64,000 bases of DNA. Origin: a virus. The notes under the pieces were generated by a model that saw nothing but the letters and a program-made list of their open reading frames with translations, was not told where the DNA came from and did not search any database. The first letter of the stretch is position 1. The number at the start of each line of letters is the position of its first letter. This document shows, in pieces, positions 5,773-63,472 of the stretch. The position numbers were made by a program, and so were the translations under genes. The DNA is taken from the IMG/VR virus record IMGVR_UViG_3300049783_001127, one strand, 5' to 3'.

Positions 5773-7683
<1,911 letters not shown>

Positions 7684-20672: not shown

Positions 20673-21995
20673 TTAATTTAACTTTATTGTTGGTTCTGCA
20701 AATCTGTCTGTTTCATGAGATCTACTTGTTAATACCCATAACATTTTACCACGCGCTCTAGGGCTAGGAGCGGGTGCCTCACCATCTGTAAGATATACCA
20801 AACAGGAAAACTCTCTTTGATGTTCATTGTAATAATCAATGACTGGCTGGAAATCTGTTCCTCCTCTGCCGTGTACTTTGATTTTACCATCTTCTGGTTT
20901 TCTGTATGATGCTATATTACTGATAGCAGTATCACACTGTATTACAGTTACTTCAGCACCAGTTTTATACATATGGTGAATTTCATGGAAAATCTCCACT
21001 AATTCATCGTCTGATACTGAACCTGACGTATCTATTCCTACAAGTACATGCTTTCTTGTTTTTACTCTAAGTCCAGGAGCACCTGTAAACCTTTTACTAG
21101 GTTTTCTTCTAGTCTTCTTAGTATAGGTCTTAATTGATCCACCAGTGAATCTTCTTAAATATCCTTTCCAATCAAACTTTGGTGGTTCTTCTGAATTGAG
21201 TGAGTCAAGATATCCTTTCAGCTCTCCAGGAATAGTACCTCTATTCTTAGCAACCTGATCACCAATTTCTTTTAATTGATAATCAATTTGTTTTTGAACC
21301 ATCTTTTTCTCTGCCTCAGATAGTGAATCAAATTCATCCCAAGTAGTGTGTTCCCATGGAGCTTGTCCTGGATGAGGGTTGCTACCATTATTACCAAGAG
21401 CTGAGTTAAGTGCAGAACATGAGCTATTCCCATTCTGGTCTGTACTCTCTAACAGTTTCTTGTAATAGTAATCAGTTCCTTGTTTAGGTTCTAAGTTCAA
21501 CTCTTTAAAGTCTTCTAAGAATAATGCACGCATTGGTATCTTTAGAAGTTCTTCTCTAGCTGCCTCTTTAGTTAATTCTTCAGATTTTAATCTAGCTTTA
21601 ATGCTATCAATAAATATCCCAGTGTCTTTTTCATAGTCCTCTTTGCTTGGATAATTACCACCTGGAAGATATGCTCTATCTATGTACTGGTTTATTTCTA
21701 AATCAGCCGCGATATTGAATAACTTTTTGTTGGTATATCTGTCTCTCAAAGTAAGATGTTGCATTGCAATATGTAATAACTCATGCTTTAAAATTCCCAC
21801 TCTATACTCAGAAGATAAACCTTCCCAGAAGTTTGGATTAATTGCTAGCTGTGTATTAATACCTTGCTTACTTACGCCTGCTGTATCCAGGTCATTTCTC
21901 CAGACCTTATTCATCATAATGAGAAAGAGCCCATAAAAGGGCTCCTTCAACATTAATTCTTTTGTGGCTCTAGAGAGTGATTCATGATTTGTCAT
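20673..21995 (-). CDS. VWA-domain protein fused to an HExxH metallopeptidase-like domain (DUF2201-like architecture)
   Basis: HELLH motif in the N-terminal half. MIDAS VGIDTSGSVS in the C-terminal half. Partner of the preceding ATPase. Confidence 0.6.
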   Translation of the reverse strand: MTNHESLSRATKELMLKEPFYGLFLIMMNKVWRNDLDTAGVSKQGINTQLAINPNFWEGLSSEYRVGILKHELLHIAMQHLTLRDRYTNKKLFNIAADLEINQYIDRAYLPGGNYPSKEDYEKDTGIFIDSIKARLKSEELTKEAAREELLKIPMRALFLEDFKELNLEPKQGTDYYYKKLLESTDQNGNSSCSALNSALGNNGSNPHPGQAPWEHTTWDEFDSLSEAEKKMVQKQIDYQLKEIGDQVAKNRGTIPGELKGYLDSLNSEEPPKFDWKGYLRRFTGGSIKTYTKKTRRKPSKRFTGAPGLRVKTRKHVLVGIDTSGSVSDDELVEIFHEIHHMYKTGAEVTVIQCDTAISNIASYRKPEDGKIKVHGRGGTDFQPVIDYYNEHQREFSCLVYLTDGEAPAPSPRARGKMLWVLTSRSHETDRFAEPTIKLN

Positions 21996-33223: not shown

Positions 33224-34723
33224 TTAATCTTCTGGATCCAATTTTGGTGTATTTGACAATGCATTTTCAGCACTTCCCAGATTTCTCAATAAAGACATAA
33301 GACCTTGACCTTCTTCAGTCTGTCCTAATGACTCCATCAATCCATTTAACTGAGCTCCTCCTTTTGAAGAGAATATATCAGAGATTTTGCTCATTCCTGA
33401 TTCAACATCTCCACTGTTAACTAACAGTTTAAGATCTGCACCATTCATAGCTTTAGCAAGTTCAGAATATTGAACTTTACCTACTTCTCCAGCTACTTCA
33501 ACTCCTTTTAAACGGATCAAGTAGTTTTGATACTCAATGTTTTCACCTACTTTATCTGCTAATTCTACTTGAGCTACAACTGATGCAAGACCAGATGCTT
33601 TCTCACCTTCAGCACTTGCAAGACCTTTAGCCTCGATTACCTTAGCTTGAGCAGTACCTTCAGCATCAATAACAGATGCATTAGCAATACCTACTTCTTT
33701 AATACCTTCAGCTACTCTCTTTTGTTTAGAAAGTTGAGCCTCTGCATCAATTTCAATACGGTACTTTTCAGCATCAGCAGCAATTATAGTTTGCTCTTTT
33801 CTTTGATTCTGAGCTACAATAGCAGCATCTTTATCAATTTCTGCTTGCTGAATTGTACCAACACGAATCACTTTCATTTCTTCTGCTTTAGAAGATTGTG
33901 CAGATACAGCAATAGCTCCTAAAGATTCTTGTTCAGCAATTCCAGATTCCTTCAAAGCTCCAGCATCTGCGATACCTACAGCCTTACGAGATTCTGCTAG
34001 TGCTTGACCTGATTCTCTTTCAGTATCAGCTGTCTTCACAGCTACTTTCTTACGAGACTCAAGCTCAGCTTCTTCAGCTTCCTGGTGGTTTCTGGCTACT
34101 TCTACACGAGATTCTTTCTCAATCTCAGATTTTCTCTTAGCCATGATTTGATAGATAACTTTTTCACCTTCTTCATCACGAACATCCATAAGCTCAATGC
34201 TCTTAACAGCAGTAACTCCCCAATGTGTAAGGTCAGCTGCAACAGCATTAGTAAATTCTTTACCAAACTTAGATCTTTCTTCCATGATTTGTTCTAAATC
34301 AGAATTAGCTAAAATTGATCTTACAGCACCTCTTACAATGTCTAGTAATTGCTCTTGTAGATCTTCAAAAGATGCAATCTTATTGGCAGCAGTATTAGTA
34401 TCTTCAATATGGAAGAATGCTTTAATATCTACAACAAAAGGAACACGCTTAATATCATAAGCTGAGTAACTTTTAAGTTCTATATCAAAGTTAGATACTG
34501 GTAATTCTCTTACTATAATACCTAAACTTGGTATCCATGCCGGAAACTTATAATAGACATTTGATCTCTTGCCTACCCCATAAGAAACAGTCTTGTTTCC
34601 TCTTTGAACAATGTGCACCATGTTTGGCGGTACAATACGTCTTAATGTTAAAACCCACAAAAAAGACAATAGCAAAACCAGTGAAGGAACTGCAATAATT
34701 AGGTTGTTAATTAACCACTCCAT
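33224..34723 (-). CDS. SPFH/Band-7 family protein, flotillin-like
   Basis: N-terminal TM helix, then an SPFH domain, then a long A/E-rich (EA-repeat) coiled coil as in flotillins (FloT/YuaG-like). Confidence 0.7.
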   Translation of the reverse strand: MEWLINNLIIAVPSLVLLLSFLWVLTLRRIVPPNMVHIVQRGNKTVSYGVGKRSNVYYKFPAWIPSLGIIVRELPVSNFDIELKSYSAYDIKRVPFVVDIKAFFHIEDTNTAANKIASFEDLQEQLLDIVRGAVRSILANSDLEQIMEERSKFGKEFTNAVAADLTHWGVTAVKSIELMDVRDEEGEKVIYQIMAKRKSEIEKESRVEVARNHQEAEEAELESRKKVAVKTADTERESGQALAESRKAVGIADAGALKESGIAEQESLGAIAVSAQSSKAEEMKVIRVGTIQQAEIDKDAAIVAQNQRKEQTIIAADAEKYRIEIDAEAQLSKQKRVAEGIKEVGIANASVIDAEGTAQAKVIEAKGLASAEGEKASGLASVVAQVELADKVGENIEYQNYLIRLKGVEVAGEVGKVQYSELAKAMNGADLKLLVNSGDVESGMSKISDIFSSKGGAQLNGLMESLGQTEEGQGLMSLLRNLGSAENALSNTPKLDPED

Positions 34724-50181: not shown

Positions 50182-50892
50182 CTATAAGTTTTCTTTAATC
50201 CAATCACTAATATAAGTTGTCCATAACACTTTACCTTTAGTATTACCTCGGTAAAGTAATCCATCAGCAAGAGCTTTTTTGCACTTAACCTCAACTTCCT
50301 CTCTACTATACATCTTCTCAACAATCCTGTGAGTAGTAATAGTGTTGTGTATTGGGTCTACTTTGAGTTTAAATTTTCCATTATCAAGTACTACTTGTGC
50401 AGAATGTGGGAAATGGTAACTCGTTGCTTCTTCATACTCAACATCAACTTCATCAAATCCACCTTGCTCACAATAAGCTTTGATTAGTGCTTGAGATGGT
50501 TGAGGTAACAATGCCGTCTTAAGTTCTCCCCCAATATATTGAGGTTTGGGGTTTGGAACATTACGTAATGTAAATATTGTAGTAGTAAGCTTAGGATCAG
50601 TAGTTGCTATGATTTTTAAACCTGATTTAGCTTCTCTTTCATGTTGAACTATAATAGTTTGTTCATTACCATTTTCATCAGATATATATATTAAATTCCA
50701 ATCCCCTACCTTAATCTCTTCATCTGTTGTGAAGTAGAGGTGTTGAGGTGTCCCGCCTATTTCTTCAATAGCCATAAGTACAGACTGAGGGTTATTGTGG
50801 AAATGGTCTAATCCACTTCCATGTAATACTATGCCTGTATAATCTTCTGTAGGTAATCTATGTACCTGTGTTCTTTTTCTATTTGCTTCCAT
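50182..50892 (-). CDS. Hypothetical protein
   Basis: 236-aa ORF. Confidence 0.5.
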   Translation of the reverse strand: MEANRKRTQVHRLPTEDYTGIVLHGSGLDHFHNNPQSVLMAIEEIGGTPQHLYFTTDEEIKVGDWNLIYISDENGNEQTIIVQHEREAKSGLKIIATTDPKLTTTIFTLRNVPNPKPQYIGGELKTALLPQPSQALIKAYCEQGGFDEVDVEYEEATSYHFPHSAQVVLDNGKFKLKVDPIHNTITTHRIVEKMYSREEVEVKCKKALADGLLYRGNTKGKVLWTTYISDWIKENL

Positions 50893-50907
50893 TTGTTTAG
50901 CTTTAGA

Positions 50908-51156
50908 TTAATAGTTAAATAGTCTTCTCCAAAAAGATAATTTAGATTTTTTCCAATCTTCCATCTTCTCTACTTTTTCTATACGTTTTTGGGATAAATA
51001 TATTACATCCCTTATACGTTTTCTCATAGTGTCAGGGTCAGAAGTATTTTGTGGGTCTATATTATAATAAGATTGATGACATCTTCTGAAATCTTTCAAT
51101 GCTTCTGCCTTTGAAGAGTATACATCCTCAATACCTTCAATAGATAACTCTTCCAT
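50908..51156 (-). CDS. Hypothetical protein
   Basis: 82-aa ORF. Shares the upstream motif TTAAAGCTAAACAAATGGAAG with 50182..50892. Confidence 0.45.
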   Translation of the reverse strand: MEELSIEGIEDVYSSKAEALKDFRRCHQSYYNIDPQNTSDPDTMRKRIRDVIYLSQKRIEKVEKMEDWKKSKLSFWRRLFNY

Positions 51157-51870
51157 TTGTTTAGCTTTAAATTGTTAATAAGTATCTCATCTGATTGTTC
51201 ACAGGCTCCTTAGTCAAGGTCCTGATATGTTTATTTACACCGTTACCTCCATAGCAAGTATAGTCAGTTACTGGTTTTTGAGAGTCTTTACTGACTCATT
51301 CAATCAGATGAGAATAAAATACCTGTCCATTTCTAAGTAATGGATTACTATAACCCCTTGGACTCTAACCAAGAACCTCCCGAAAGTGTACTAATTGTAC
51401 CAGAGTTTGATAAGTATCTTACAATAAACAACGTCATCTTAGCATGACTGTGAAGTACTCAATCCCAGACATTCCCCGATTACTCAGTATGTTTCTGACT
51501 TCGTATCAATCACTGTTTATCTTCAGCAGGTAGTATTTTAATAAGTATGAATATGACTTAGATAGCGTAATCACCAGTCCCAATAGAGCTTGTTTCCTTC
51601 TCTGTCAGTTACACCAATTATCCACCATATCATATTCAATATCCTCCCTACAAGGTTGCACCTTGATTATCCACTAATGAAAGTGTTTCGTGCCTTACGC
51701 ACTTTGCCTGCAGTTGGATAGGGAAACCTTTGTCACAAGGTTTTAGTATTGTTAAATGCTATCTTAGTCTTTGGTTTTGTGTTTCTTCTTCCTAGTATAC
51801 TTAGTCTTATCCTTGTACACATTAGGCCTAGTAGCTTGGTTAATCTCTTCTTGAGTTACTACAATCTTCT

Positions 51871-52059
51871 TCATGATAATTTTCTAATTCTAGCTTGCAG
51901 CTCAATGAGTTCAATAATATGTTTAAATGACTCATTTTGATCCTCTAAATTCTGGATATATGCATCTGAATATCTCTCAGATTTACTGAGACATTCAAAA
52001 TTGTGTTTAAGAACATCTAATACAGCTACATGAGCTTTAAGGTTTTCAAGTTCAGTCAT
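51871..52059 (-). CDS. Hypothetical protein
   Basis: 62-aa ORF. Start lies in a TTGTAGAATGA overlap. Confidence 0.4.
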   Translation of the reverse strand: MTELENLKAHVAVLDVLKHNFECLSKSERYSDAYIQNLEDQNESFKHIIELIELQARIRKLS

Positions 52060-52307
52060 TCTACAAATTTTATATTTCTGTTAATAGGTACTGTCTTAAC
52101 CATCTGATAACCAAATGTTCTTGAGTAATTATCCTTTTCAGCCTGATCTTCAGTATAACTAATGAAGGCTGAGAATGCTTTGTGAGCCAGCTTAATTGTC
52201 TTAAACACTGTAGCATCACGTGGATCCTCAACAATTTGTTCCCTTGTTGCATTATAGAATAGTTCATGAGTCTTATTTATTACAATATAGCTCTTAAATG
52301 CTTTCAT
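52056..52307 (-). CDS. Hypothetical protein
   Basis: 83 aa, ends KFVE*. Confidence 0.45.
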   Translation of the reverse strand: MKAFKSYIVINKTHELFYNATREQIVEDPRDATVFKTIKLAHKAFSAFISYTEDQAEKDNYSRTFGYQMVKTVPINRNIKFVE

Positions 52308-52534
52308 TTGTCCTCCATATTCTTATCCACATAATGCCGGATAATACGAAGTAACACTGTGAAGTGTATAATAAGCACTAAGGTAAGAACCCATGTACTA
52401 ATAGTATCATGCATAACTTCATTATCACTCATAGGCTTCATGTTGAAACCATACCATAAGTTGTATAATAAATAGTGTATCACCCATAGGTAAAATACTC
52501 TATCTGCTAGCTTTAATATCTTCTTTGTCCTCAT
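52304..52534 (-). CDS. Small membrane protein
   Basis: 76 aa, two hydrophobic helices. Confidence 0.4.
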   Translation of the reverse strand: MRTKKILKLADRVFYLWVIHYLLYNLWYGFNMKPMSDNEVMHDTISTWVLTLVLIIHFTVLLRIIRHYVDKNMEDK

Positions 52535-52543
52535 AACATATAG

Positions 52544-52840
52544 TTATAACTGTTCACGCCACCCTTTTTCATACTTCTGATTAATTGCCTGCCGAGCGTC
52601 ATTGACAGCAATATTCTTTTCCTTATCAGTTGTACAAGTCTTCTGTGTATCCTTGATTAGGATAGCTAGTTCTCTACGAATAGCTTTAGTTGACTTTGAA
52701 TACTTAGCAGGATTACGAGGTTCCTCAGTATTATAGTTACCTGGCTCCATTGTCCGCGGATAACCTACTGCTGGTCCAATGTATTCTCCTGTTTGTTCAT
52801 CACATATACCATCAAGTAACATGTCTGCTGCATCTCCCAT
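52544..52840 (-). CDS. Hypothetical protein
   Basis: 98 aa. Upstream CTATAAATCTAAC motif. Confidence 0.45.
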   Translation of the reverse strand: MGDAADMLLDGICDEQTGEYIGPAVGYPRTMEPGNYNTEEPRNPAKYSKSTKAIRRELAILIKDTQKTCTTDKEKNIAVNDARQAINQKYEKGWREQL

Positions 52841-52913
52841 AATTAGTTAGATTTATAGTTAATTTCAGTTGTTCCGGATACATTTATACTCTTCCTCATC
52901 TATAGAGAGAAGA

Positions 52914-53165
52914 CTAATAATCTGTGTTACCTAATATCTGTCTTTTAGCAAGAGCAGTATCCTCTTCTTCTCTTGATTTAATACCAAGGCTAATAGACTC
53001 ACCATAACATTGTATAGTTGGTTCATACTTTGCTGTAGCTCCTATACTTAAGAAGCCAGCTGATATTGGATTATGACCTCTAAAGTCACTATGTTCTAAT
53101 AGGTCACTAAATACAATCATTACATCGTCTTTAGTTACTATGTACTTCTGTTTGTGTTGGAACAT
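52914..53165 (-). CDS. Hypothetical protein
   Basis: 83 aa. Upstream CTATAAATCTAAC motif. Confidence 0.45.
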   Translation of the reverse strand: MFQHKQKYIVTKDDVMIVFSDLLEHSDFRGHNPISAGFLSIGATAKYEPTIQCYGESISLGIKSREEEDTALAKRQILGNTDY

Positions 53166-53187
53166 GTTGGTTAGATTTATAGTTATT

Positions 53188-53436
53188 TTACTTACACTCT
53201 CCTACTACTGGTAAGGGTGTGTTTGAACTCGATTGCCATGTACCATTTTCTTGAACGCCTGTGCATTCGTTAATTGTTACCCACGGAGCAAATGAATAAC
53301 CTATACTGTTAAATAGATTCACTTCAACGTACTTATCGCAATTGCAATTTGGAGCAGGTGGTACTGGTTCAATTGGTTCATCTTTACAGCTTGATAAAGC
53401 CAGTGTTAAAAGTAATATTGTTGTTAATGTTTTCAT
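53188..53436 (-). CDS. Small lipoprotein
   Basis: MKTLTTILLLTLALSSC lipobox. Upstream CTATAAATA. Confidence 0.5.
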   Translation of the reverse strand: MKTLTTILLLTLALSSCKDEPIEPVPPAPNCNCDKYVEVNLFNSIGYSFAPWVTINECTGVQENGTWQSSSNTPLPVVGECK

Positions 53437-53835
53437 GTTGTTTTATTTATAGGTTTCTAATAGTAAGTGTTAGTGAATAAAATAATAGTGTTCTCATAAG
53501 GTTGCACCTTTTAGATATGTCTTCTTTTAAGAGATTGCATAGTAAGTTACAAGTTTACAAGCATCTGATTCCCACCACGCCATTGGATAAGAACACTATT
53601 AGATGTCAGTTGGGACTTCCTGCTCAGCTGCAGCGTAAGATTATTCTACCCTGTTTGGAATTCTCTGACTTCCTGATTGTTTAGCTCCTTGTATTACAAC
53701 TAGGTAATATAATCAACAATGAAATTATAGCTGCAGATATTATAGGTACTAAAGGTGTGGCAACTAGATAACATATGTAATCTATTATTCCTAGTATAAC
53801 TATTATAGTTAAACACATTGTGAATGCTGTTTTTT

Positions 53836-54228
53836 TCATATCTCAATAAGTTTTTTGATAGGTTTCTTTTTAAACCATTTTTTATAAAAAGGTAACTCGT
53901 ACCAATCTATAATCTCCCAAAAGTTTTGCAAAGCGTAGTCTTTTAGATCCTCTCTCTTAATTGTAATAGATGTTATTTCTTTCATAGTTTCCTTAGTGTT
54001 TGGTTTGATGTGGTTTGCTAGGCTTGCCTCCCATCTTTGATCGGATTCAGAACCCTCTTTGTATATTGATCTTGACACCATTAGTAAGTCGTTAAGCCTT
54101 ATCAGTTCTTCTTCGTGCTTGGCTTGGAGTTGTATTAAATACTGATTTAGTAAATATTCAGACATTTCACCGTCATTGTAAGTATTTAAAATCTCTATTT
54201 CTAATTCCTCTATCGCTGTGTTTTTCAT
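53836..54228 (-). CDS. Hypothetical protein (contains an internal copy of its own upstream leader repeat)
   Basis: 130-aa ORF. A roughly 36-nt direct repeat lies upstream of both the start codon and an internal Met. Confidence 0.4.
   Translation of the reverse strand: MKNTAIEELEIEILNTYNDGEMSEYLLNQYLIQLQAKHEEELIRLNDLLMVSRSIYKEGSESDQRWEASLANHIKPNTKETMKEITSITIKREDLKDYALQNFWEIIDWYELPFYKKWFKKKPIKKLIEI
53984..54020 (-). repeat. Direct repeat copy 1 (about 36 nt) of a leader-like element; copy 2 is at 54227..54262
   Basis: AGCAAACCACATCA[A/C]ACCAAACACTAAGGAA(A)CTATG occurs twice, each time immediately 5' of an ATG (minus-strand sense). Confidence 0.6.
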
Positions 54229-59024: not shown

Positions 59025-59717
59025 ATGATGAAACTAAAAATTATGAGTAAAGCACTTTTAGTAATGTCTCTAGCAATGACATCATGCCAACAACAAAATA
59101 TTGAATCGCCTAACAAGAAAATTGTTATGTTAGGTGATTCAGGCATAAAACAAATAGACGGTCAGCTCTCAGGAGTTAATCAATCTTCTTGGAACGCTTT
59201 GATGGGTCATAACAATATGATCAACTTAGGTTTTAATGGATACGCAACAGCAAATATCATAAGCTATGGCAATCCTGCACCTTTGGCCTTGGCTATTGCA
59301 GAAGCCCCTGATCTATTATACTTAAGTATAGGTGGAAATGATGGTGCTGCAGGACAAGGTAGTGGTGTATCTTTAGCTACAACTATGGCTAATCTTGAAA
59401 ATATATGTAATCAAATAAAAGCTGCAAACATTCCATTTGTAATTGTTTCTGTTCTCCCTTTCACTAAGATAAGAAATGAAACCGCTGGTGGGGGTGTAGG
59501 GATATTCAATGACAACTTTCAAAACATGAATGATGCTATTATCCAGTTTTGCGCAGACAATGAATATGAATGCATGGATATACGCCCTTATGTTTGTTAT
59601 AGAGAAAATGGCTTATGGCACTTAAGAGACAGTCTCACTTTTGACGGAGTCCACTTAACTTTTGAAGGATATGAACAGTGGGCAATACCTCTAAGTTACA
59701 GTATTAACCAACATTAA
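59025..59717 (+). CDS. SGNH/GDSL-family hydrolase lipoprotein
   Basis: Signal plus lipobox (LAMTSC). Block I GDSGI, block III GGNDG, block V DGVHLT. Confidence 0.7.
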   Translation: MMKLKIMSKALLVMSLAMTSCQQQNIESPNKKIVMLGDSGIKQIDGQLSGVNQSSWNALMGHNNMINLGFNGYATANIISYGNPAPLALAIAEAPDLLYLSIGGNDGAAGQGSGVSLATTMANLENICNQIKAANIPFVIVSVLPFTKIRNETAGGGVGIFNDNFQNMNDAIIQFCADNEYECMDIRPYVCYRENGLWHLRDSLTFDGVHLTFEGYEQWAIPLSYSINQH

Positions 59718-60747: not shown

Positions 60748-60820
60748 GGAGGTATAGCAAAGATGGACTATGCGGGGGTTTGAAGAACCTTAGATCCAAG
60801 ATCGTTACTTGGTGCCTCCA
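60748..60820 (+). tRNA. tRNA-like element / probable pseudo-tRNA (73 nt, aberrant anticodon arm)
   Basis: Acceptor GGAGGTA/TGCCTCC and T-arm CCAAG-ATCGTTA-CTTGG are present, but the anticodon stem is poor. Confidence 0.3.
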
Positions 60821-60825
60821 CACAT

Positions 60826-60896
60826 GGGATGGATTATGGTGATAGCCGGGACTGTAAATCCCTAGCAGGTTGGTTCGAGTCCAGCGCATCCCACCA
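60826..60896 (+). tRNA. tRNA (anticodon read as GTA, Tyr?; atypical short form)
   Basis: T-arm GTTGG-TTCGAGT-CCAGC. Acceptor GGGATGG/GCATCCC, discriminator A plus an encoded CCA. D-arm irregular. Confidence 0.4.
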
Positions 60897-60901
60897 ATTA
60901 T

Positions 60902-60985
60902 AGAGGGCATCCGGCTGGATGAGGAGCTGATCTTGAAAATCAGTAGCACTGAAAGGTGTTTAGAGTTCGAGTCTCTAGCCCTCTA
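60902..60985 (+). tRNA. tRNA-Ser(TGA), class II
   Basis: Acceptor AGAGGGC/GCCCTCT, anticodon stem CTGAT/ATCAG with loop CTTGAAA, long variable arm, T-arm TAGAG-TTCGAGT-CTCTA. Confidence 0.65.
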
Positions 60986-60990
60986 CATAC

Positions 60991-61059
60991 GCGTCTCAGG
61001 CCGGGGTGGCCAAACGGATTCCAAACCCGTAGGGCAGAGTTCAACTCTTTGGGGGCGCG
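60991..61059 (+). tRNA. tRNA (anticodon read as CCA, Trp?)
   Basis: Acceptor GCGTCTC/GGGGCGC (two G-U pairs), anticodon loop TTCCAAA, T-arm CAGAG-TTCAACT-CTTTG. Confidence 0.4.
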
Positions 61060-61064
61060 CAAAT

Positions 61065-61135
61065 GGTACCATGAGTGAGTGGCTAACTGCCGGTCTGCAA
61101 AACCGGTTACGCTGGTTCAAATCCAGCTGGTACCT
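61065..61135 (+). tRNA. tRNA-Cys(GCA)
   Basis: Acceptor GGTACCA/TGGTACC, anticodon stem CCGGT/ACCGG with loop CTGCAAA, T-arm GCTGG-TTCAAAT-CCAGC. Confidence 0.7.
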
Positions 61136-61227
61136 CAAACAGAGAGAGAACCTACCTGGGTAGGCTGCCCCTGCTAAGGGCATGGGTGTGAAAGCACTGG
61201 GGATCAAGGCCTCCTCTCTCTACAAAT

Positions 61228-61309
61228 GCCTTTGTGGTGGAATTGGGAGACACAGCGGTCTTAGAAGCCGTGGCTGAAATGCATGAGAGTTCGAGTCTCT
61301 CCAGAGGTA
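61228..61309 (+). tRNA. tRNA-Leu(TAG), class II
   Basis: Acceptor GCCTTTG/CAGAGGT (G-U pairs), anticodon loop CTTAGAA, long variable arm, T-arm GAGAG-TTCGAGT-CTCTC. Confidence 0.5.
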
Positions 61310-61320
61310 CAATAACAAAT

Positions 61321-61393
61321 GCCCCCGTAGCTCAACTGCTAGAGCAACGCTCTTCTACAGCGTGGGTTAGAGGTTGGAATCCTCTCGGGGGTA
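61321..61393 (+). tRNA. tRNA-Arg(TCT)
   Basis: Acceptor GCCCCCG/CGGGGGT, D-stem GCTC/GAGC, anticodon stem ACGCT/AGCGT with loop CTTCTAC. Confidence 0.7.
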
Positions 61394-61401
61394 CTATACA
61401 A

Positions 61402-61474
61402 GGGGAAGTAGCTCAACAGCTAGAGCACTTGGCTACGAACTAAGAGGTTATGAGTTGGACTCTCATCTTTCCCT
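61402..61474 (+). tRNA. tRNA-Arg(ACG)
   Basis: Acceptor GGGGAAG/CTTTCCC, D-stem GCTC/GAGC, anticodon loop CTACGAA. Confidence 0.65.
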
Positions 61475-61479
61475 CTACT

Positions 61480-61563
61480 GCTCCAGTGGTGGAAATGGCT
61501 ATACACGACAGGCTTAAGACCTGTTGCCTTTAAGGATTGGGGGTTCGAATCCCTCCTGGAGTA
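61480..61563 (+). tRNA. tRNA-Leu(TAA), class II
   Basis: Acceptor GCTCCAG/CTGGAGT, anticodon stem ACAGG/CCTGT with loop CTTAAGA, long variable arm, T-arm GGGGG-TTCGAAT-CCCTC. Followed by a T-run. Confidence 0.65.
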
Positions 61564-61764
61564 CTTTTTTTAAAAATAATTGCTAATTAATTTGGTAGTT
61601 AAGAAACTATGCCTATATTTGCTTTAATAAACACTTAGAAACAGCATGTACAAGATACAACATATGGCGCCCGCAACGGCAATTACTAATCAGGTAGAAG
61701 GGAAAGATCCCAGCTGCCCGGAGAAGTCATATATGTAACTTAGTAACTACTAACTATACATTAA

Positions 61765-61793
61765 GCTCTCCGGGAAACCAGAGGGCTTTTTTT
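61765..61793 (+). terminator. Intrinsic terminator with a GNRA (GAAA) tetraloop inside the tRNA cluster
   Basis: GCTCTCCGG-gaaa-CCAGAGGGC followed by TTTTTTT. Confidence 0.6.
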
Positions 61794-61806
61794 ATGCCCG
61801 ATATAT

Positions 61807-61879
61807 CTAGATGTATATCAGTTGGTAGATGGCCTGCTTTGGGAGCAGGAGGCCGGGGGTTCGAGTCCCTCCATCTAGA
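61807..61879 (+). tRNA. tRNA-Pro(TGG)
   Basis: Acceptor CTAGATG/CATCTAG, anticodon stem CCTGC/GCAGG with loop TTTGGGA, T-loop TTCGAGT. Confidence 0.65.
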
Positions 61880-61893
61880 CTAAAAAATAACTA

Positions 61894-62054
61894 TGGATGA
61901 ATTAAGAGCAGAAATTGCAGAATTAGAAAGTACGTTAACAGGAGACATGTTTCAAGATATGGAGATAAAAGATAAAATCCATAATCTAAACATGAAACTA
62001 ACTGGGACAAAACCAACAGATAGTCACTTTGACTGTGTAGGATGTGGTAGTTAA
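61894..62054 (+). CDS. Small ORF (53 aa, MDELRAEIAELESTLTGDMFQDM...CVGCGS) inside the tRNA array
   Basis: ATG-started ORF filling the gap between tRNA-Pro and tRNA-Ala. Not in the track (under 60 aa). Confidence 0.3.
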
Positions 62055-62061
62055 AACAAAT

Positions 62062-62134
62062 GGGGAAGTAGCTCAAATGGATGAGCATCTGCCTTGCACG
62101 CAGAAGGATGAGGGTTCAACTCCCTTCTTCTCCA
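62062..62134 (+). tRNA. tRNA-Ala(TGC)
   Basis: Acceptor GGGGAAG/CTTCTCC, D-stem GCTC/GAGC, anticodon stem TCTGC/GCAGA with loop CTTGCAC, T-loop TTCAACT. Confidence 0.7.
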
Positions 62135-62167
62135 CAAATACAGACTTGGAAATCTGTATTATGCACA

Positions 62168-62240
62168 AGCGCGCTGTAGCTTAATGCTAAAGCATCTGCC
62201 TTCCAAGCAGAGGACGGAGTTGGATTCTCACGGTGCGCTC
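62168..62240 (+). tRNA. tRNA-Gly(TCC)-like (irregular T-stem; possibly degenerate)
   Basis: Anticodon stem TCTGC/GCAGA with loop CTTCCAA. The T-stem needs a bulged nucleotide. Confidence 0.4.
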
Positions 62241-62249
62241 AATTAATAT

Positions 62250-62325
62250 GGTCTATGGGGCTGCTTGGTGTGGCCACTCCCCTGTCACGGGAGATATCAG
62301 ATGGGTTCAAATCCCATATGGACCG
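62250..62325 (+). tRNA. tRNA-Asp(GTC)
   Basis: Acceptor GGTCTAT/ATGGACC, anticodon stem CTCCC/GGGAG with loop CTGTCAC, T-arm ATGGG-TTCAAAT-CCCAT. Confidence 0.65.
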
Positions 62326-62392
62326 CAGAGAGAGAGATGCAGGTAATCCTGCCCGACAGGTGGTGTAATTAACATACTCTCTATTAAATTAT

Positions 62393-62463
62393 GCCTCATA
62401 AGCTTTAAGGTGAAGCTCTTGACTGTTAATCAAAGGAAGGTGGCTCAATCCCATCATGAGGCG
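62393..62463 (+). tRNA. tRNA-Asn(GTT)
   Basis: Acceptor GCCTCAT/ATGAGGC, D-stem GCTT/AAGC, anticodon loop CTGTTAA. Confidence 0.55.
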
Positions 62464-62469
62464 CAAAAC

Positions 62470-62543
62470 AGGTGTATAGCTCAATTGGTTAGAGCACTTC
62501 GCTGATACCGAAGAGGTTATAGGTTCAATTCCTATTATACCTA
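62470..62543 (+). tRNA. tRNA-Ile(GAT)
   Basis: D-arm GCTC-AATTGGTT-AGAGC, anticodon stem CTTCG/CGAAG with loop CTGATAC, T-arm ATAGG-TTCAATT-CCTAT. Confidence 0.7.
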
Positions 62544-62554
62544 CAATATAAAAT

Positions 62555-62628
62555 AGGAGTATAGCTCAGGGGTTTAGAGCACTTCCCTTACAAGGAATAG
62601 GTCCGGGGTTCAAATCCCTGTACTCCTA
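62555..62628 (+). tRNA. tRNA-Val(TAC)
   Basis: Acceptor AGGAGTA/TACTCCT, D-stem GCTC/GAGC, anticodon loop CTTACAA, T-arm CGGGG-TTCAAAT-CCCTG. Confidence 0.6.
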
Positions 62629-62677
62629 CAGAAGAAAAAAGTATTATGAAAAAGAAGATAAAGATATTGAAACACTT

Positions 62678-62750
62678 AGTCCCCTAGCTCAACGGTTAGA
62701 GCATCACTCTTATAAGGTGAAGGTTATCAGTTCAATTCTGATGGGGGCTA
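62678..62750 (+). tRNA. tRNA with anticodon TAT (Ile-UAU type, AUA decoder)
   Basis: Acceptor AGTCCCC/GGGGGCT, D-stem GCTC/GAGC, anticodon stem TCACT/GGTGA with loop CTTATAA. Confidence 0.55.
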
Positions 62751-62759
62751 CAACAACAA

Positions 62760-62831
62760 GCCCCCTTAGCTCAATGGCGGAGCCACCGGCTTTTAACCGG
62801 TAGGACATTGGATCAGTACCAATAGGGGGTA
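62760..62831 (+). tRNA. tRNA-Lys(TTT)
   Basis: Acceptor GCCCCCT/AGGGGGT, anticodon stem ACCGG/CCGGT with loop CTTTTAA, T-stem ATTGG/CCAAT. Confidence 0.65.
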
Positions 62832-62842
62832 CAAAAATATAT

Positions 62843-62916
62843 AGCGGGATGGGAAGTAATTGGTAACTCCTTGGTCTCATAAGCCAACGTTCCGGGTTCA
62901 AGTCCCGGTTCCGCTA
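62843..62916 (+). tRNA. tRNA-Met(CAT) (Met/fMet/Ile2 type undetermined)
   Basis: Acceptor AGCGGGA/TTCCGCT, anticodon stem TTGGT/GCCAA with loop CTCATAA, T-arm CCGGG-TTCAAGT-CCCGG. Confidence 0.6.
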
Positions 62917-62990
62917 CCAACTAGTAAAGTTAAACACAATGAGAGTAGATTCAGACATATCAGAAGTAGAAGAAGGAGAAGAGACAATAT

Positions 62991-63063
62991 GCTCCGTTCT
63001 TCTAACTGGTCAGGAAACCACACTTTCAATGTGGCAACACGGGTTCGAGCCCCGTACGGAGTA
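62991..63063 (+). tRNA. tRNA-Glu(TTC)
   Basis: Acceptor GCTCCGT/ACGGAGT, anticodon stem CCACA/TGTGG with loop CTTTCAA, T-arm ACGGG-TTCGAGC-CCCGT. Confidence 0.65.
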
Positions 63064-63110
63064 CCATCAGAGTACGCTACATCTGTTCTAGGTGTAGCAC
63101 CACAATTCAA

Positions 63111-63183
63111 GCTTCTAAAACATTTAATGGATGATGTCTGCTCTTGTAAAGCAGGGAACTAGGTTCGATTCCTAGTGGGAGCT
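63111..63183 (+). tRNA. tRNA-Thr(TGT)
   Basis: Acceptor GCTTCTA/TGGGAGC (G-U pairs), anticodon stem CTGCT/AGCAG with loop CTTGTAA, T-arm CTAGG-TTCGATT-CCTAG. Confidence 0.55.
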
Positions 63184-63191
63184 CTATATCT

Positions 63192-63266
63192 TGCCCGGTA
63201 GACAAAGTAGGCAAAGTCACCACACTTTGAATGTGGAATTTGTAGGTTCGAGGCCTGCCCGGGCAA
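63192..63266 (+). tRNA. tRNA-Gln(TTG)
   Basis: Acceptor TGCCCGG/CCGGGCA, anticodon stem CCACA/TGTGG with loop CTTTGAA, T-loop TTCGAGG. Confidence 0.6.
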
Positions 63267-63268
63267 CT

Positions 63269-63338
63269 GTGTTATTAGCTTATTGGTAAAGTGCTAGACT
63301 GTGAATCTAGAGAAGAGGGTTCGATTCCCCATAACACC
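63269..63338 (+). tRNA. tRNA-His(GTG)
   Basis: Acceptor GTGTTAT/ATAACAC, anticodon stem CTAGA/TCTAG with loop CTGTGAA, T-loop TTCGATT. Confidence 0.55.
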
Positions 63339-63472
63339 CCATTTAATTTGTTAGTCTTAAAGTTTTTCGCTATATTATAGTATGATAGTATTTGTAGGAG
63401 TAGGTATTGTATTAATTGCTTGCTACCACATAAAAAACTATTTTACAAAAGACTAGATTAAAACATAAATAT

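What the first reader, a model, noticed from the sequence alone, without database searches (positions are those of the whole stretch)
51157..51870. About 710-bp ORF-free, GC-enriched, structure-rich region - candidate large ncRNA, intron remnant or origin
Coding density in this genome is very high, yet this stretch has no ORF of 60 aa or longer on the coding (minus) strand. It is visibly GC-richer than its surroundings. It contains a perfect 12-bp long-range inverted repeat (CTCATCTGATTG at 51186 and CAATCAGATGAG at 51310) plus many local hairpins (GTGCcttacGCAC, AACCTTtgtcacaAGGTT, CTTGGactctaaCCAAG). It shares the hairpin-forming 13-mer AAGGTTGCACCTT with the other ORF-poor region at about 53497.
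Basis: seen in the sequence. Interest (0 to 1): 0.6.

Follow-up and report, generated by a model that had tools for sequence, protein, structure and literature searches.

The report
Phage noncoding island with conserved RNA
The gene-free stretch is real, and its first ~95 bases carry one copy of a folded RNA element, absent from Rfam, that recurs in dozens of phage genomes, often beside tRNA and tmRNA genes; its function is still unknown.

Summary
The ORF-free stretch is real, but about 607 nt long (51157-51763). The top end of the reported interval is a probable 36-aa gene. It is not a decayed gene, an intron or an origin. It is neither clearly GC-rich nor unusually "structure-rich".

The useful clue was the 13-mer shared with the 53.5-kb gap. 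It is the core of a conserved, strand-specific structured element with two copies on the minus strand: 51634-51730 and 53480-53601.
- A closing helix P1 covaries across 47 copies.
- Next comes an invariant box, UAUCCAA..GG.
- Then a variable insert of roughly 30-150 nt.
- Last is an invariant hairpin, CAAGGUGCAACCUUG, abutting the 3' strand of P1. This is the acceptor/T-arm layout of a tRNA.

All 47 copies are intergenic and flanked closely by ORFs on the element's own strand. Nothing in Rfam matches. In 185,579 bacterial and archaeal species genomes a sequence pattern from its 3' end hit only three MAG contigs. Flavobacterium phage FpV21 has one copy.

At least eight contigs carry a tmRNA gene on the same strand within about 6 kb. 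One copy sits directly upstream of a tRNA gene.

Two relatives (L152, L037) keep the island's 5' half. The 3' 360 nt has no detectable conservation.

Best reading: an island of small stem-closed RNAs in the early gene cluster. Function unproven.

The parts
51764..51874 (-). 36-aa ORF (MKKIVVTQEEINQATRPNVYKDKTKYTRKKKHKTKD). It is a probable real small gene and marks the upper boundary of the noncoding island, although it lies inside the reported interval.
   Evidence: Its ATG overlaps the TGA of the 62-aa gene 51871-52059. Source gene callers annotated it in several contigs. Pfam DUF7230 scores 26.9 bits against a cut-off of 27, E 5e-6.
51724..51743 (-). Hairpin AAACCUU-GUGACA-AAGGUUU just after the 36-aa ORF. 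Its 3' arm runs into P1 of the conserved element.
   Evidence: Read directly from the sequence. A hairpin occupies the same place in L152 (ACCUUUA...UAAAGGU) and in L037 (CAAGG...CCUUG). It does not fit the terminator pattern.
51634..51730 (-). Conserved structured element, copy 1 ('module A').
- P1 5' strand: 51719-51726 (UUUCCCUA)
- Invariant box UCCAACUGCAGG: 51707-51718
- Variable insert: 51666-51706
- Invariant hairpin CAAGGUGCAACCUUG: 51651-51665
- P1 3' strand UAGGGAGG: 51643-51650
   Evidence: Covariance model R1 scores it 63.5 bits, E 7e-10. It aligns with 46 other copies: 98.8% of cells are paired, and 9 of 14 pairs show changes on both sides. G-U outnumbers A-C 15 to 4, so this strand is the one that folds.
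51549..51637 (-). Second stem-closed module ('module B'). Its closing helix is GAAUAUGA (51630-51637) with UCAUAUUC (51549-51556).
   Evidence: The helix appears in the minimum-energy fold. Relative L152 has a closing helix at the same place with a different sequence (AAUAUUAAG / CUUAAUAUU) and a shorter interior. That is two sequences only, so support is modest.
51520..51547 (-). Conserved single-stranded linker UACUUAUUAAAAUACUACCUGCUGAAGA.
   Evidence: It is conserved in the same order in the window, L152 and L037. The sub-motif TACTTATTAA recurs at 51406-51416 and 51174-51184. A one-mismatch variant, TACCTATTAA, lies at 52080-52090.
51185..51313 (-). A perfect 13-bp helix (UCUCAUCUGAUUG / CAAUCAGAUGAGA) enclosing 103 nt. 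The interior is predicted to form three hairpins, a cloverleaf-like topology ('module D').
   Evidence: Inverted repeat I4; 3 of 1000 shuffles reach 13 bp. There is no comparative support: model R1 does not match it, and a 19-mer from its 3' hairpin has no match in IMG/VR.
51157..51184 (-). Leader of the 82-aa gene (UACUUAUUAACAAUUUAAAGCUAAACAA, then AUG at 51154-51156).
   Evidence: Read from the sequence. The same leader style, TTATTAAC..TTTAAA, precedes the first gene after the island in L037.
53480..53601 (-). Conserved structured element, copy 2, in the other ORF-poor gap.
- P1: 53587-53601 with 53483-53497 (15 bp, one G-U)
- Box CCAAUGGCGUGG
- Hairpin AAGGUGCAACCUU: 53498-53510
- Then UUUUAUU, with the next gene's AUG 46 nt on
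   Evidence: Model R1 scores it 56.8 bits, E 2e-8. The helix is inverted repeat I3. The fold z-score is -3.3, with 0 of 200 shuffles as stable.

Best explanation
SHOWN. Positions 51157-51763 are noncoding DNA inside a long block of minus-strand genes of a marine Flavobacteriia-type phage. They lie about 4.8 kb below the divergent region at 56.5-57.4 kb that heads that block.

The first ~95 nt on the minus strand (51730 down to 51634) are one copy of a conserved, strand-specific structured element:
- a closing helix P1 of 7-15 bp whose sequence changes by compensating substitutions;
- the invariant box UAUCCAA(U/C)UGCAGG immediately after the 5' strand of P1;
- a variable, hairpin-forming insert;
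- the invariant 15-nt hairpin CAAGGUGCAACCUUG, which runs without a gap into the 3' strand of P1.

A second copy lies 1.85 kb upstream, at 53480-53601. What follows copy 1 is a second stem-closed module, a conserved AU-rich linker, about 200 nt of unconserved sequence, and a cloverleaf-like domain closed by a 13-bp helix.

INFERRED. The island is transcribed with the early genes. Each stem-closed module is released or persists as a small stable RNA, much as tRNAs are cut out of a tRNA array.

Module A has the topology of a tRNA or a tmRNA tRNA-like domain: an acceptor-like P1 next to a T-arm-like hairpin, with a conserved box where the D arm would be and an insert where the anticodon arm would be.

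I propose that module A acts as an RNA by binding one conserved partner, either a host tRNA-handling or translation-quality-control factor or a phage protein. That would explain why 28 nt stay invariant while everything else drifts.

The partner and the effect are unknown. The 3' 360 nt may be lineage-specific small RNAs or spacer sequence.
For: Noncoding:
- Stop codons are at random density in six frames.
- Stop-free fragments have no PHROG match.
- Relatives L152 and L037 are also ORF-free at this place.

The family is real:
- The 18-mer from the P3 / P1-3' junction found 13 IMG/VR loci.
- The covariance model then found 45 further copies in about 1.2 Mb of fetched loci.

It folds:
- 98.8% of cells in the model-fitted alignment pair, against 86.7% in shuffles and 35-56% with slid partners. 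Nine of 14 pairs change on both sides.
- P1 variants are visible by eye: CUCUA/UAGAG, CUCUCA/UGAGAG, CUCCCA/UGGGAG, GACUCUCA/UGAGAGUC, AUAUCUA/UAGAUAU, AAUAACA/UGUUAUU, UUCCCUA/UAGGGAG and the 15-bp region-2 helix.
- The hairpin shows G-C to A-U at one pair in two copies.

Sense-strand RNA:
- G-U outnumbers A-C 15 to 4.
- None of the 47 copies overlaps an ORF; same-strand ORFs lie close by and opposite-strand ORFs are mostly far.

Phage-specific and low copy:
- A sequence pattern from the 3' end hit only three contigs, all in MAGs, across 185,579 species genomes; the model confirms an element at each.
- There is one copy in the complete 89.7-kb FpV21 genome, 1.5 kb from the head of its leftward operon.
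- There are two copies in this 64-kb window.

Company of RNA genes:
- tmRNA genes lie on the same strand within 0.15-6 kb in L052, L058, L044, L069, L081, L117, L140 and L054. Four of these are confirmed by Rfam.
- In L024 the element lies about 10 nt upstream of a tRNA that has a 100-nt insert. A tRNA-like acceptor/T-arm end, not recognised by Rfam, lies a few nt upstream.
- The L152 island also holds a tRNA-Leu-like gene.

Island architecture is conserved in order in the window, L152 and L037.
Against: - There is no expression data of any kind. Transcription, processing and stability are all inferred.
- Every contig identical to this phage is 100% identical across the region. Nothing can be said about selection within the lineage.
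- The tRNA resemblance is topological only. ARAGORN and the Rfam tRNA model do not recognise the element. The T-like loop has 3-5 nt, not 7. There is no anticodon arm or CCA. P1 length varies from 7 to 15 bp.
- FpV21 has the element but no tRNA or tmRNA gene.
- In this window the tRNA array is 9 kb away on the other strand.
- A possible loop-loop pairing (UUGCA with UGCAA) is not backed by covariation; several natural variants break it.
- Modules B and D rest on a minimum-energy fold plus, at most, one relative.
- The region's fold energies are not exceptional.
- Strong conservation of two boxes flanking a helix would equally fit a cis-acting protein-binding site.
Confidence: 0.4

Rival explanations
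1. A cis-acting intercistronic RNA element in the early transcript. One possibility is a processive antitermination site of the lambda nut or HK022 put kind, in which a conserved single-stranded box plus a conserved hairpin load onto or modify RNA polymerase. Another is a processing or stability site like the RNase III sites between T7 early genes. On this reading no free small RNA is needed. The comparisons with nut, put and T7 rest on my own knowledge.
For: - The element has the same sense as the flanking genes and is always intercistronic.
- There are only one or two copies per genome, and they lie in the proximal part of the leftward gene block both in FpV21 and here.
- In compact cases it fills the whole gap between two genes: 3-17 nt after the stop and 20-33 nt before the next ATG. 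That leaves no room for its own promoter.
- Invariant boxes would suit binding to a conserved surface of host RNA polymerase or a Nus-like factor.
- Most copies are followed by U-rich sequence.
Against: - Direct adjacency to a tRNA gene in L024 and the recurrent neighbourhood of tmRNA genes are not expected for an antiterminator.
- Two copies 1.85 kb apart in one gene block is redundant for antitermination.
- P1 plus the hairpin stack to about 15 bp, which is short for RNase III (from my own knowledge).
- In this window the element is 486 nt from the next gene.
Confidence: 0.25
2. A DNA-level site: a strand-specific single-stranded-DNA fold used for priming or replication initiation, or a recombination junction that shuffles small gene cassettes, like the promoter/stem-loop (PeSL) repeats of T4-type phages. 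The comparison with PeSL repeats rests on my own knowledge. The ORF-free stretch would be what deletions between such junctions leave behind.
For: - The region sits among ORFan mini-genes that differ between relatives. The 62-aa protein has no homologue at all. The 82-aa and 236-aa genes sit on opposite sides of the element in L152 and in the window.
- The motif TACTTATTAA recurs four times locally, one copy with a mismatch, each time after a stem or before a gene.
- G-T pairs are tolerated in folded single-stranded DNA too.
Against: - The copy number is one or two per genome, not the many copies expected of cassette junctions.
- The outermost helix covaries while the inner boxes are fixed. 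That is the reverse of recombinase or transposase ends.
- There are no iterons, no AT-rich tract and no skew turn.
- The element is flanked closely by ORFs on its own strand in nearly all of the 47 cases. That would be unexplained for a replication signal.
Confidence: 0.1
3. Mostly junk. Apart from the ~95-nt conserved element, the rest of the stretch (51157-51633) is non-functional spacer or a long-dead gene remnant, and its stems are chance.
For: - No conservation was found for 51157-51519 in IMG/VR, JGI metagenomes or GenBank phages.
- Fold z-scores are ordinary.
- The hairpin count is not above that of neighbouring coding DNA.
Against: - Coding density in the window is high; few ORF-free gaps exceed 300 nt outside the tRNA-array end. 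That suggests idle DNA is not usually kept.
- The 13-bp perfect helix is reached by only 3 of 1000 shuffles.
- Module B's closing helix and the linker are kept in L152 and L037.
- Those relatives have even longer ORF-free islands at the same place, 1.27 and 1.5 kb.
Confidence: 0.15
4. A group I or group II intron remnant, or another known large ncRNA such as GOLLD, ROOL or HEARO.
For: Only the size and the absence of an ORF.
Against: - There is no Rfam match at E<=10 on either strand, and none at gathering score anywhere in the window except tRNAs.
- The flanking ORFs are independent genes and are not halves of a split gene.
Confidence: 0.02

Closest known systems
tRNA genes and the tRNA-like domain of tmRNA
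   Same: - The 5' and 3' ends pair in a helix.
- A short conserved hairpin runs directly into the 3' strand of that helix, as the T arm runs into the acceptor stem.
- A conserved box follows the 5' strand, where the D arm would be.
- An insert of free length occupies the anticodon-arm position, as in tmRNA.
- In L024 it sits directly upstream of a tRNA gene, and in at least eight contigs it sits near a tmRNA gene.
   Different: - It is not recognised by ARAGORN or by the Rfam tRNA and tmRNA models.
- The hairpin loop has 3-5 nt and lacks the T-loop sequence.
- There is no anticodon arm, no CCA, and no tag reading frame.
- The closing helix is 7-15 bp, not 7.
Small stable RNAs encoded inside phage tRNA clusters (T4 species 1 and species 2 RNAs; recalled from my own knowledge, not checked here)
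   Same: These are phage-encoded, stem-closed small RNAs of unknown function, co-located and presumably co-processed with tRNAs.
   Different: - No sequence relationship was tested.
- Here the element also occurs in a phage without any tRNA gene (FpV21), and far from the tRNA array in this window.
Lambda nut (boxA + boxB) and HK022 put antitermination RNAs (from my own knowledge)
   Same: - A conserved single-stranded box is combined with a conserved 15-nt hairpin.
- There are one or two copies per genome, in the sense strand of early operons.
- The element is phage-specific.
   Different: - nut and put have no covarying closing helix and no variable insert.
- They do not sit next to tRNA genes.
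- No N-like or Nus-dependent function could be tested.
Bacterial Y RNAs with a tRNA-like module (YrlA; title and abstract of PMC4201824, seen)
   Same: A noncoding RNA whose ends pair in a stem and which mimics a tRNA.
   Different: - There is no Rfam Y RNA hit.
- No Ro60/Rsr gene was looked for or seen.
- The box sequences are unrelated, as far as tested by Rfam.
Catalogue of 8,495 candidate structured RNAs predicted from IMG/VR (PMC10690425)
   Same: It uses the same data source (IMG/VR intergenic regions). The authors report many tRNA-like candidates and motifs upstream of genes. This element may be one of their unnamed candidates.
   Different: This could not be checked, because no supplementary text is held. 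That paper assigns no function to most candidates. No paper in the library contains the box sequences in a relevant context.

Membership tests
Any Rfam 15 family (4227 models) | A covariance-model match at the gathering score, or at least a suggestive E-value | tested here: not met
   - Window at gathering score: only 18 tRNAs, at 60.7-63.3 kb.
- Window 50800-54000 at E<=10: one chance snoU30 hit in a coding region.
- Twenty-one other loci carrying the element were scanned. Nothing overlaps it.
tRNA | A cloverleaf with a 7-bp acceptor stem, D arm, anticodon arm with a 7-nt loop, and a T arm with a 7-nt loop, recognised by ARAGORN or Rfam RF00005 | tested here: not met
   Neither tool calls the element in the window or in the loci. 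There is no anticodon arm, and the T-like loop has 3-5 nt. Only the acceptor/T-arm layout is shared.
tmRNA | A tRNA-like domain plus a tag reading frame ending in ..AA-stop, recognised by ARAGORN or Rfam | tested here: not met
   There is no tmRNA call in the window. I saw no reading frame ending ..AA-stop in the six-frame translation. tmRNA genes do occur near the element in eight other contigs.
Group I / group II intron (or remnant) | A conserved catalytic core, and flanking sequences that join into one reading frame | tested here: not met
   There is no Rfam hit. The upstream 36-aa ORF ends in its own stop and matches DUF7230. One homologue of the 82-aa protein is also 82 aa.
Replication origin | An AT-rich unwinding tract, repeated initiator-binding sites (iterons), and a GC-skew turn | tested here: not met
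   - GC is slightly above average.
- There is no direct-repeat family with more than three short copies and no tandem repeat.
- Cumulative skew falls steadily through the region and turns near 54.7 kb.
- Origin activity itself cannot be tested here.
Pseudogene | Residual similarity to a protein family, or an intact ORF at the same place in relatives | tested here: not met
   - Ten stop-free fragments have no PHROG hit better than E 0.12.
- Stops are at random density.
- L152 and L037 are ORF-free at the syntenic place.
- The fragments were not searched against the large protein databases.
Intrinsic terminator | A short GC-rich hairpin with a 3-8 nt loop, directly followed by a U run | tested here: inconclusive
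   The pattern scan finds none in 50800-54000. Most family members have a U-rich tail after P1, including copy 2 (UUUUAUU). However, P1 encloses 60-190 nt, and copy 1 has no U run.
New element family defined here (model R1) | A closing helix that covaries | tested here: met
   98.8% of cells pair; 0 of 500 shuffles reach the observed values; slid controls give 35-56%. Both window copies form it, with sequences unlike the consensus. The alignment was fitted to the model, which favours the structure.
New element family defined here (model R1) | The invariant box UAUCCAA..GG after P1, and the invariant hairpin (C)AAGGUGCAACCUU(G) before the 3' strand of P1 | tested here: met
   Both are present in copy 1. 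Copy 2 has CCAAUGGCGUGG and AAGGUGCAACCUU.
New element family defined here (model R1) | Intergenic position, in the same sense as the flanking genes | tested here: met
   None of the 47 copies overlaps an ORF; both window copies lie on the minus strand among minus-strand genes.
nut/put-type antitermination site | Lies between an early promoter and a terminator, and makes RNA polymerase read through | not testable with these tools
   The position in the proximal part of the leftward gene block is compatible. Promoters could not be located: no Bacteroidota-type -33/-7 pattern occurs in the region.
PeSL-type cassette junction repeats | Many copies per genome, bracketing ORFan cassettes, each with a promoter consensus | tested here: not met
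   There are two copies in 64 kb and one in the complete FpV21 genome.

The most novel reading that the evidence does not exclude
Module A is a new class of phage-encoded, tRNA-shaped small RNA. It has a fixed scaffold (closing helix, UAUCCAA..GG box, CAAGGUGCAACCUUG hairpin) and a freely evolving insert. The host tRNA-processing machinery would cut it out of early transcripts. It would act in trans, for example as a decoy or adaptor for a host tRNA-directed defence or for the tmRNA/SmpB rescue pathway. That would explain why it travels with phage tmRNA and tRNA genes.
Probability: 0.15. Interest if true: 0.8.

Novelty: new variant of a known kind. Interest (0 to 1): 0.6.

Why it matters
Phages are known to carry tRNAs, tmRNAs and a few small RNAs. 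Most conserved noncoding elements in uncultured phage genomes are still unnamed and untested.

This element has 28 invariant nucleotides, a helix with clear compensatory changes and a strict strand preference. At least 50 copies were found in a small sample. It is absent from Rfam, and its 3'-end sequence pattern is nearly absent from bacterial and archaeal species genomes.

It also occurs in a cultured, tractable system: Fipvunavirus phages on Flavobacterium psychrophilum, a fish pathogen for which phage therapy is being developed. Its function is therefore directly testable.

If it is a tRNA-shaped decoy or an antitermination signal, it would add a new RNA tool to phage-host conflict or to early gene control in Bacteroidota. 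In that group, promoters, ribosome binding and termination differ from the E. coli paradigm.

For annotation, it explains two of the larger unexplained gaps in this contig, and similar gaps in many IMG/VR contigs.

Tried and rejected
- **Stop-codon recoding.** All three stop codons occur in every frame, and no suppressor tRNA is among the 20 tRNAs. Rejected.
- **Short conserved peptide over the hairpin.** SRCNLVGRILN in the window resembles SRCNLVEKILI in L037. The window has a stop just upstream and no start. L152 loses the ATG of the 20-aa ORF that follows GGGAGG. Rejected.
- **Close strain variants for covariation.** Eight contigs from four JGI samples and two SRA runs are 100% identical across the region. 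No information.
- **Synteny through the 82-aa gene.** Homologues at 75-83% identity (L017-L022) have other genes or a divergent control region upstream, and no similarity to the region.
- **The 62-aa gene.** It has no homologue at all.
- **GenBank phages.** BLAST with the region or with 24 kb around it found nothing.
- **Bacteroidota promoter pattern TTTG..TAnnTTTG.** None in the region, and not enriched in the window.
- **TACTTATTAAC as a genome-wide promoter.** Matches are not above chance window-wide; it is only a local cluster.
- **GGAGG/GGGAGG enrichment.** Two of the nine minus-strand GGGAGG lie in the region. This is post hoc; one of them is simply the 3' strand of P1.
- **Loop-loop pairing (UUGCA of the box with UGCAA of the hairpin).** RNAalifold proposed it, but natural variants break it without compensation.
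- **A third copy of the element at 51185-51313.** The model does not match it.
- **Further relatives of the 3' half.** Exact-pattern scans with CTTGGTTAGAGTCCAAGG and GGACCTTGACTAAGGAGCC found nothing. The linker pattern found only L037.
- **Antisense target.** A 16/17-nt match exists between the insert of copy 1 (51676-51692) and the SPFH-domain gene (33862-33878). Its E-value is 0.56, which is chance level.
- **Literature.** No paper in the library holds the box sequences in a relevant context, and nothing on Fipvunavirus noncoding elements turned up.
Full report
**1. Context**

The window has 34.9% GC. Almost all ORFs from about 5 kb to 56.5 kb lie on the minus strand. Plus-strand genes resume at 57.4 kb, followed by 20 tRNA genes at 60.7-63.3 kb.

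A GroEL-type chaperonin is encoded at 5773-7401. The 236-aa protein next to the region belongs to PHROG 15656. Its only GenBank relatives are Cellulophaga phages, at 31-36% identity. The source is therefore a marine Flavobacteriia-type phage with no close cultured relative.

**2. The observation**

The stretch has no ORF of 60 aa or more on either strand from 51157 to 51748. It is the largest such gap in the window outside the tRNA-array end at 61.4-64 kb. TAA, TAG and TGA occur in all six frames at about the density expected for this base composition. It is therefore neither a recoded gene nor a recently broken one.

The upper 110 nt of the reported interval are a 36-aa ORF. Its ATG overlaps the stop of the preceding gene. 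It scores 26.9 bits against Pfam DUF7230, whose cut-off is 27. The noncoding stretch is thus 51157-51763, 607 nt.

The other claims fare as follows.
- The inverted repeat is 13 bp (51185-51197 with 51301-51313) and is rare by chance: 3 of 1000 shuffles reach it.
- The 13-mer AAGGTTGCACCTT occurs exactly twice in the window.
- GC is 36.9%, only the 87th percentile of same-size windows.
- Fold energies are ordinary, locally and overall.
- The number of short hairpins is within the range of neighbouring coding DNA.

**3. Dead ends**

- Rfam gives nothing at E<=10.
- PHROG scans of the stop-free fragments give nothing.
- All contigs that encode the same flanking proteins are 100% identical across the region.
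- Homologues of the 82-aa protein at 75-83% identity sit in different surroundings.
- The 62-aa protein has no homologue.

**4. The lead**

I first took these for chance matches. Then nhmmer showed that one of them, L037, matches the window over 33 nt around the 13-mer and again over 29 nt further on.

The 18-mer CAAGGTGCAACCTTGTAG then found 13 loci. Lining them up showed a common architecture, read on the window's minus strand:
- a 5' helix strand (for example AAACUCUCA);
- the box UCCAAUUGCAGG;
- an insert of very variable length;
- the hairpin CAAGGUGCAACCUUG;
- the matching 3' helix strand (UGAGAGUUU);
- usually a U-rich tail.

The window's copy 1 has UUUCCCUA / UAGGGAGG as its helix. The other ORF-poor gap holds copy 2. 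Its helix is the 15-nt inverted repeat 53483-53497 / 53587-53601, a completely different sequence in the same position.

**5. The family**

A covariance model built from 15 copies (R1) finds exactly these two copies in the window, at 63.5 and 56.8 bits. It finds 45 more in the fetched loci.

Evidence for the fold, from the 47-sequence alignment:
- 98.8% of helix cells form standard pairs. Shuffled partners give 86.7%, and slid partners 35-56%.
- Nine of 14 pairs change on both sides. Part of this count comes from register differences between 8- and 9-bp helices, and the alignment was fitted to the model.
- Even so, at least eight clearly different helix sequences are visible by eye.
- The hairpin has a G-C to A-U exchange in two copies.
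- The insert also folds. Between L119 and L065, UUAGGU/ACCUAA becomes UUAGAU/AUCUAA.
- G-U pairs outnumber A-C mismatches 15 to 4. The strand that folds is therefore the sense strand of the surrounding genes.

Evidence on position and distribution:
- None of the 47 copies overlaps an ORF of 40 aa or more, apart from one borderline case.
- Same-strand ORFs lie close by. Opposite-strand ORFs are mostly far.
- In GenBank phages the element is found only in Fipvunavirus phages of Flavobacterium psychrophilum, FpV21, Fpv20 and the FPSV series.
- The complete FpV21 genome has a single copy. It lies 1.5 kb from the head of the leftward early/replication gene block.
- In 185,579 bacterial and archaeal species genomes, the 21-mer pattern CAAGGTGCAACCTTGTRRGAG matched only three contigs, all in MAGs. 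The model confirms an element at each.

No Rfam family overlaps any copy. No paper in the library contains the box sequences in a relevant context. A 2023 catalogue of 8,495 unnamed candidate RNAs from IMG/VR may include it. I could not check this.

**6. Company it keeps**

ARAGORN finds tmRNA genes on the same strand as the element, 0.15-3 kb away, in L052, L058, L044, L069, L081, L117 and L140. Rfam confirms those of L058, L081 and L052; the L052 gene is the permuted type. Rfam also adds L054, 5.7 kb away. Many loci also carry tRNA genes.

In L024 the helix ends about 10 nt before a tRNA that has a 100-nt insert. The helix starts a few nt after a tRNA-like acceptor/T-arm end that Rfam does not call.

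Many copies lie in ORF-free stretches of several hundred nt. These stretches contain further stem-closed modules separated by repeated AU-rich linkers.

**7. Anatomy of the window's island**

The single metagenome scan found L152, an intermediate relative. The window, L152 and L037 share the following, in the same order:
- a hairpin after the upstream gene;
- module A;
- the sequence GAUAUUGA;
- a stem-closed module B. Its closing helix differs but stays complementary: GAAUAUGA/UCAUAUUC here, AAUAUUAAG/CUUAAUAUU in L152. I found no matching helix in L037;
- the linker UACUUAUUAAAA..UACCU.CUGAAGA.

After the linker the three diverge. L152 and L037 continue for 0.7-0.9 kb with blocks of their own, and L152 carries a tRNA-Leu-like gene there. 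The window continues for 360 nt, ending in the 13-bp helix that closes a predicted three-hairpin domain. The leader of the 82-aa gene follows. For this last part I found no relative.

**8. Interpretation**

What is shown: the stretch is noncoding, and it begins with a member of a conserved, sense-strand, phage-specific structured element whose second copy explains the other gap.

What is inferred: the element is transcribed with the early genes and works as RNA.

Its layout matches a tRNA or the tRNA-like domain of tmRNA in three respects. A terminal helix is continuous with a short conserved hairpin on the 3' side. A conserved box sits on the 5' side. An insert occupies the anticodon-arm position. 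Together with its position next to a tRNA gene and its neighbourhood of tmRNA genes, this makes 'a small stable RNA released by the tRNA-processing machinery and binding one conserved partner' my preferred reading, at 0.4.

The main rival, at 0.25, is a cis-acting intercistronic signal of the nut/put or processing-site kind. It fits the low copy number, the position in the proximal part of the gene block, and the compact cases with no room for a promoter.

DNA-level roles (0.1) and 'mostly junk beyond module A' (0.15) cannot be excluded. Intron and origin readings are not supported.

**9. Verdict**

The descriptive claims about GC and structure richness are weak, and the three proposed identities do not hold.

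The finding is of moderate to good interest. It yields a well-supported RNA motif that is absent from Rfam, has dozens of members and has a cultured host-phage system in which its function can be tested.

Noticed in passing
window 60748-63341 (+): An array of 20 tRNA genes covering 17 amino acids, with no suppressor tRNA. It lies on the strand opposite to the early gene block.
   Followed up: partly
window 5773-7401 (-): A phage-encoded GroEL/Cpn60-type chaperonin (Pfam PF00118, E 1e-75). Also seen: an SPFH/Band-7 protein at 33224-34723, a DUF2201 metallopeptidase/VWA protein at 20673-21995, and a GDSL lipase at 59025-59717.
   Followed up: no
IMG/VR loci L052, L058, L044, L069, L081, L117, L140, L054: Phage contigs encode tmRNA genes, including one circularly permuted type in L052 (Rfam RF04321). 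Their tag peptides end in ..LAA, ..IAA, ..MAA or ..FAA. All lie on the same strand as the conserved element.
   Followed up: partly
L024 3317-3660 (-): The element is followed by a tRNA with a 100-nt insert in the anticodon region (Rfam tRNA, 38 bits). It is preceded by a 74-nt sequence with a good acceptor stem and T arm that neither ARAGORN nor Rfam calls a tRNA.
   Followed up: partly
L054 ~7480-7610, L074 ~850-980, L124 ~90-225 (all minus strand): A second conserved module lies directly downstream of the element in three contigs: AAAAUACUACUUAAGCUAGUUUAUGAACAGCCACACU ... AGUGUAAAG.GGUGAGAUGCC. Its first 12 nt resemble the window's linker. Rfam has no match.
   Followed up: no
L044, L065, L140, L106, L104 (downstream of the element): Stem-closed modules of about 70 nt are bracketed by direct repeats of UUUAAUAAUAUAAA(U/C). 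This suggests arrays of small RNAs or repeated promoter-like spacers.
   Followed up: no
L037 5890-7436 and L152 2935-4200: ORF-free islands of 1.5 kb and 1.27 kb lie at the syntenic place. They share blocks that the window lacks (GGTCAAACCTATGACC.TGTGA, GAAAG.TAAGGGAAAGTGT, ATATAACCTTATCCAGTGTA). No Rfam family matches them.
   Followed up: partly
L017 2676-3804: In a TARA relative, the operon holding the 82-aa homologue starts at a 1.1-kb divergent ORF-poor region. That region has iteron-like repeats (CACTTGAGCA four times) and a tandem GGTAAGYATTAAGGATAAAC. It looks like an operator or origin region.
   Followed up: no
window 50903-50918, 52847-52862, 53171-53186 (+ coordinates; minus-strand genes): The motif TTAACTATAAATCTAA lies 5-17 nt upstream of three minus-strand start codons. 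It is probably part of the translation-initiation or promoter region in this phage, which has no Shine-Dalgarno sequences.
   Followed up: no
window 51676-51692 vs 33862-33878: The insert of element copy 1 is complementary, at 16 of 17 nt, to the mRNA of the SPFH-domain gene. The BLAST E-value is 0.56, which is chance level.
   Followed up: partly
FpV21 (KT876726.1) 83,840-86,170: A 2.3-kb stretch has no annotated gene, in the same leftward block as the element. ARAGORN finds no tRNA or tmRNA there.
   Followed up: no
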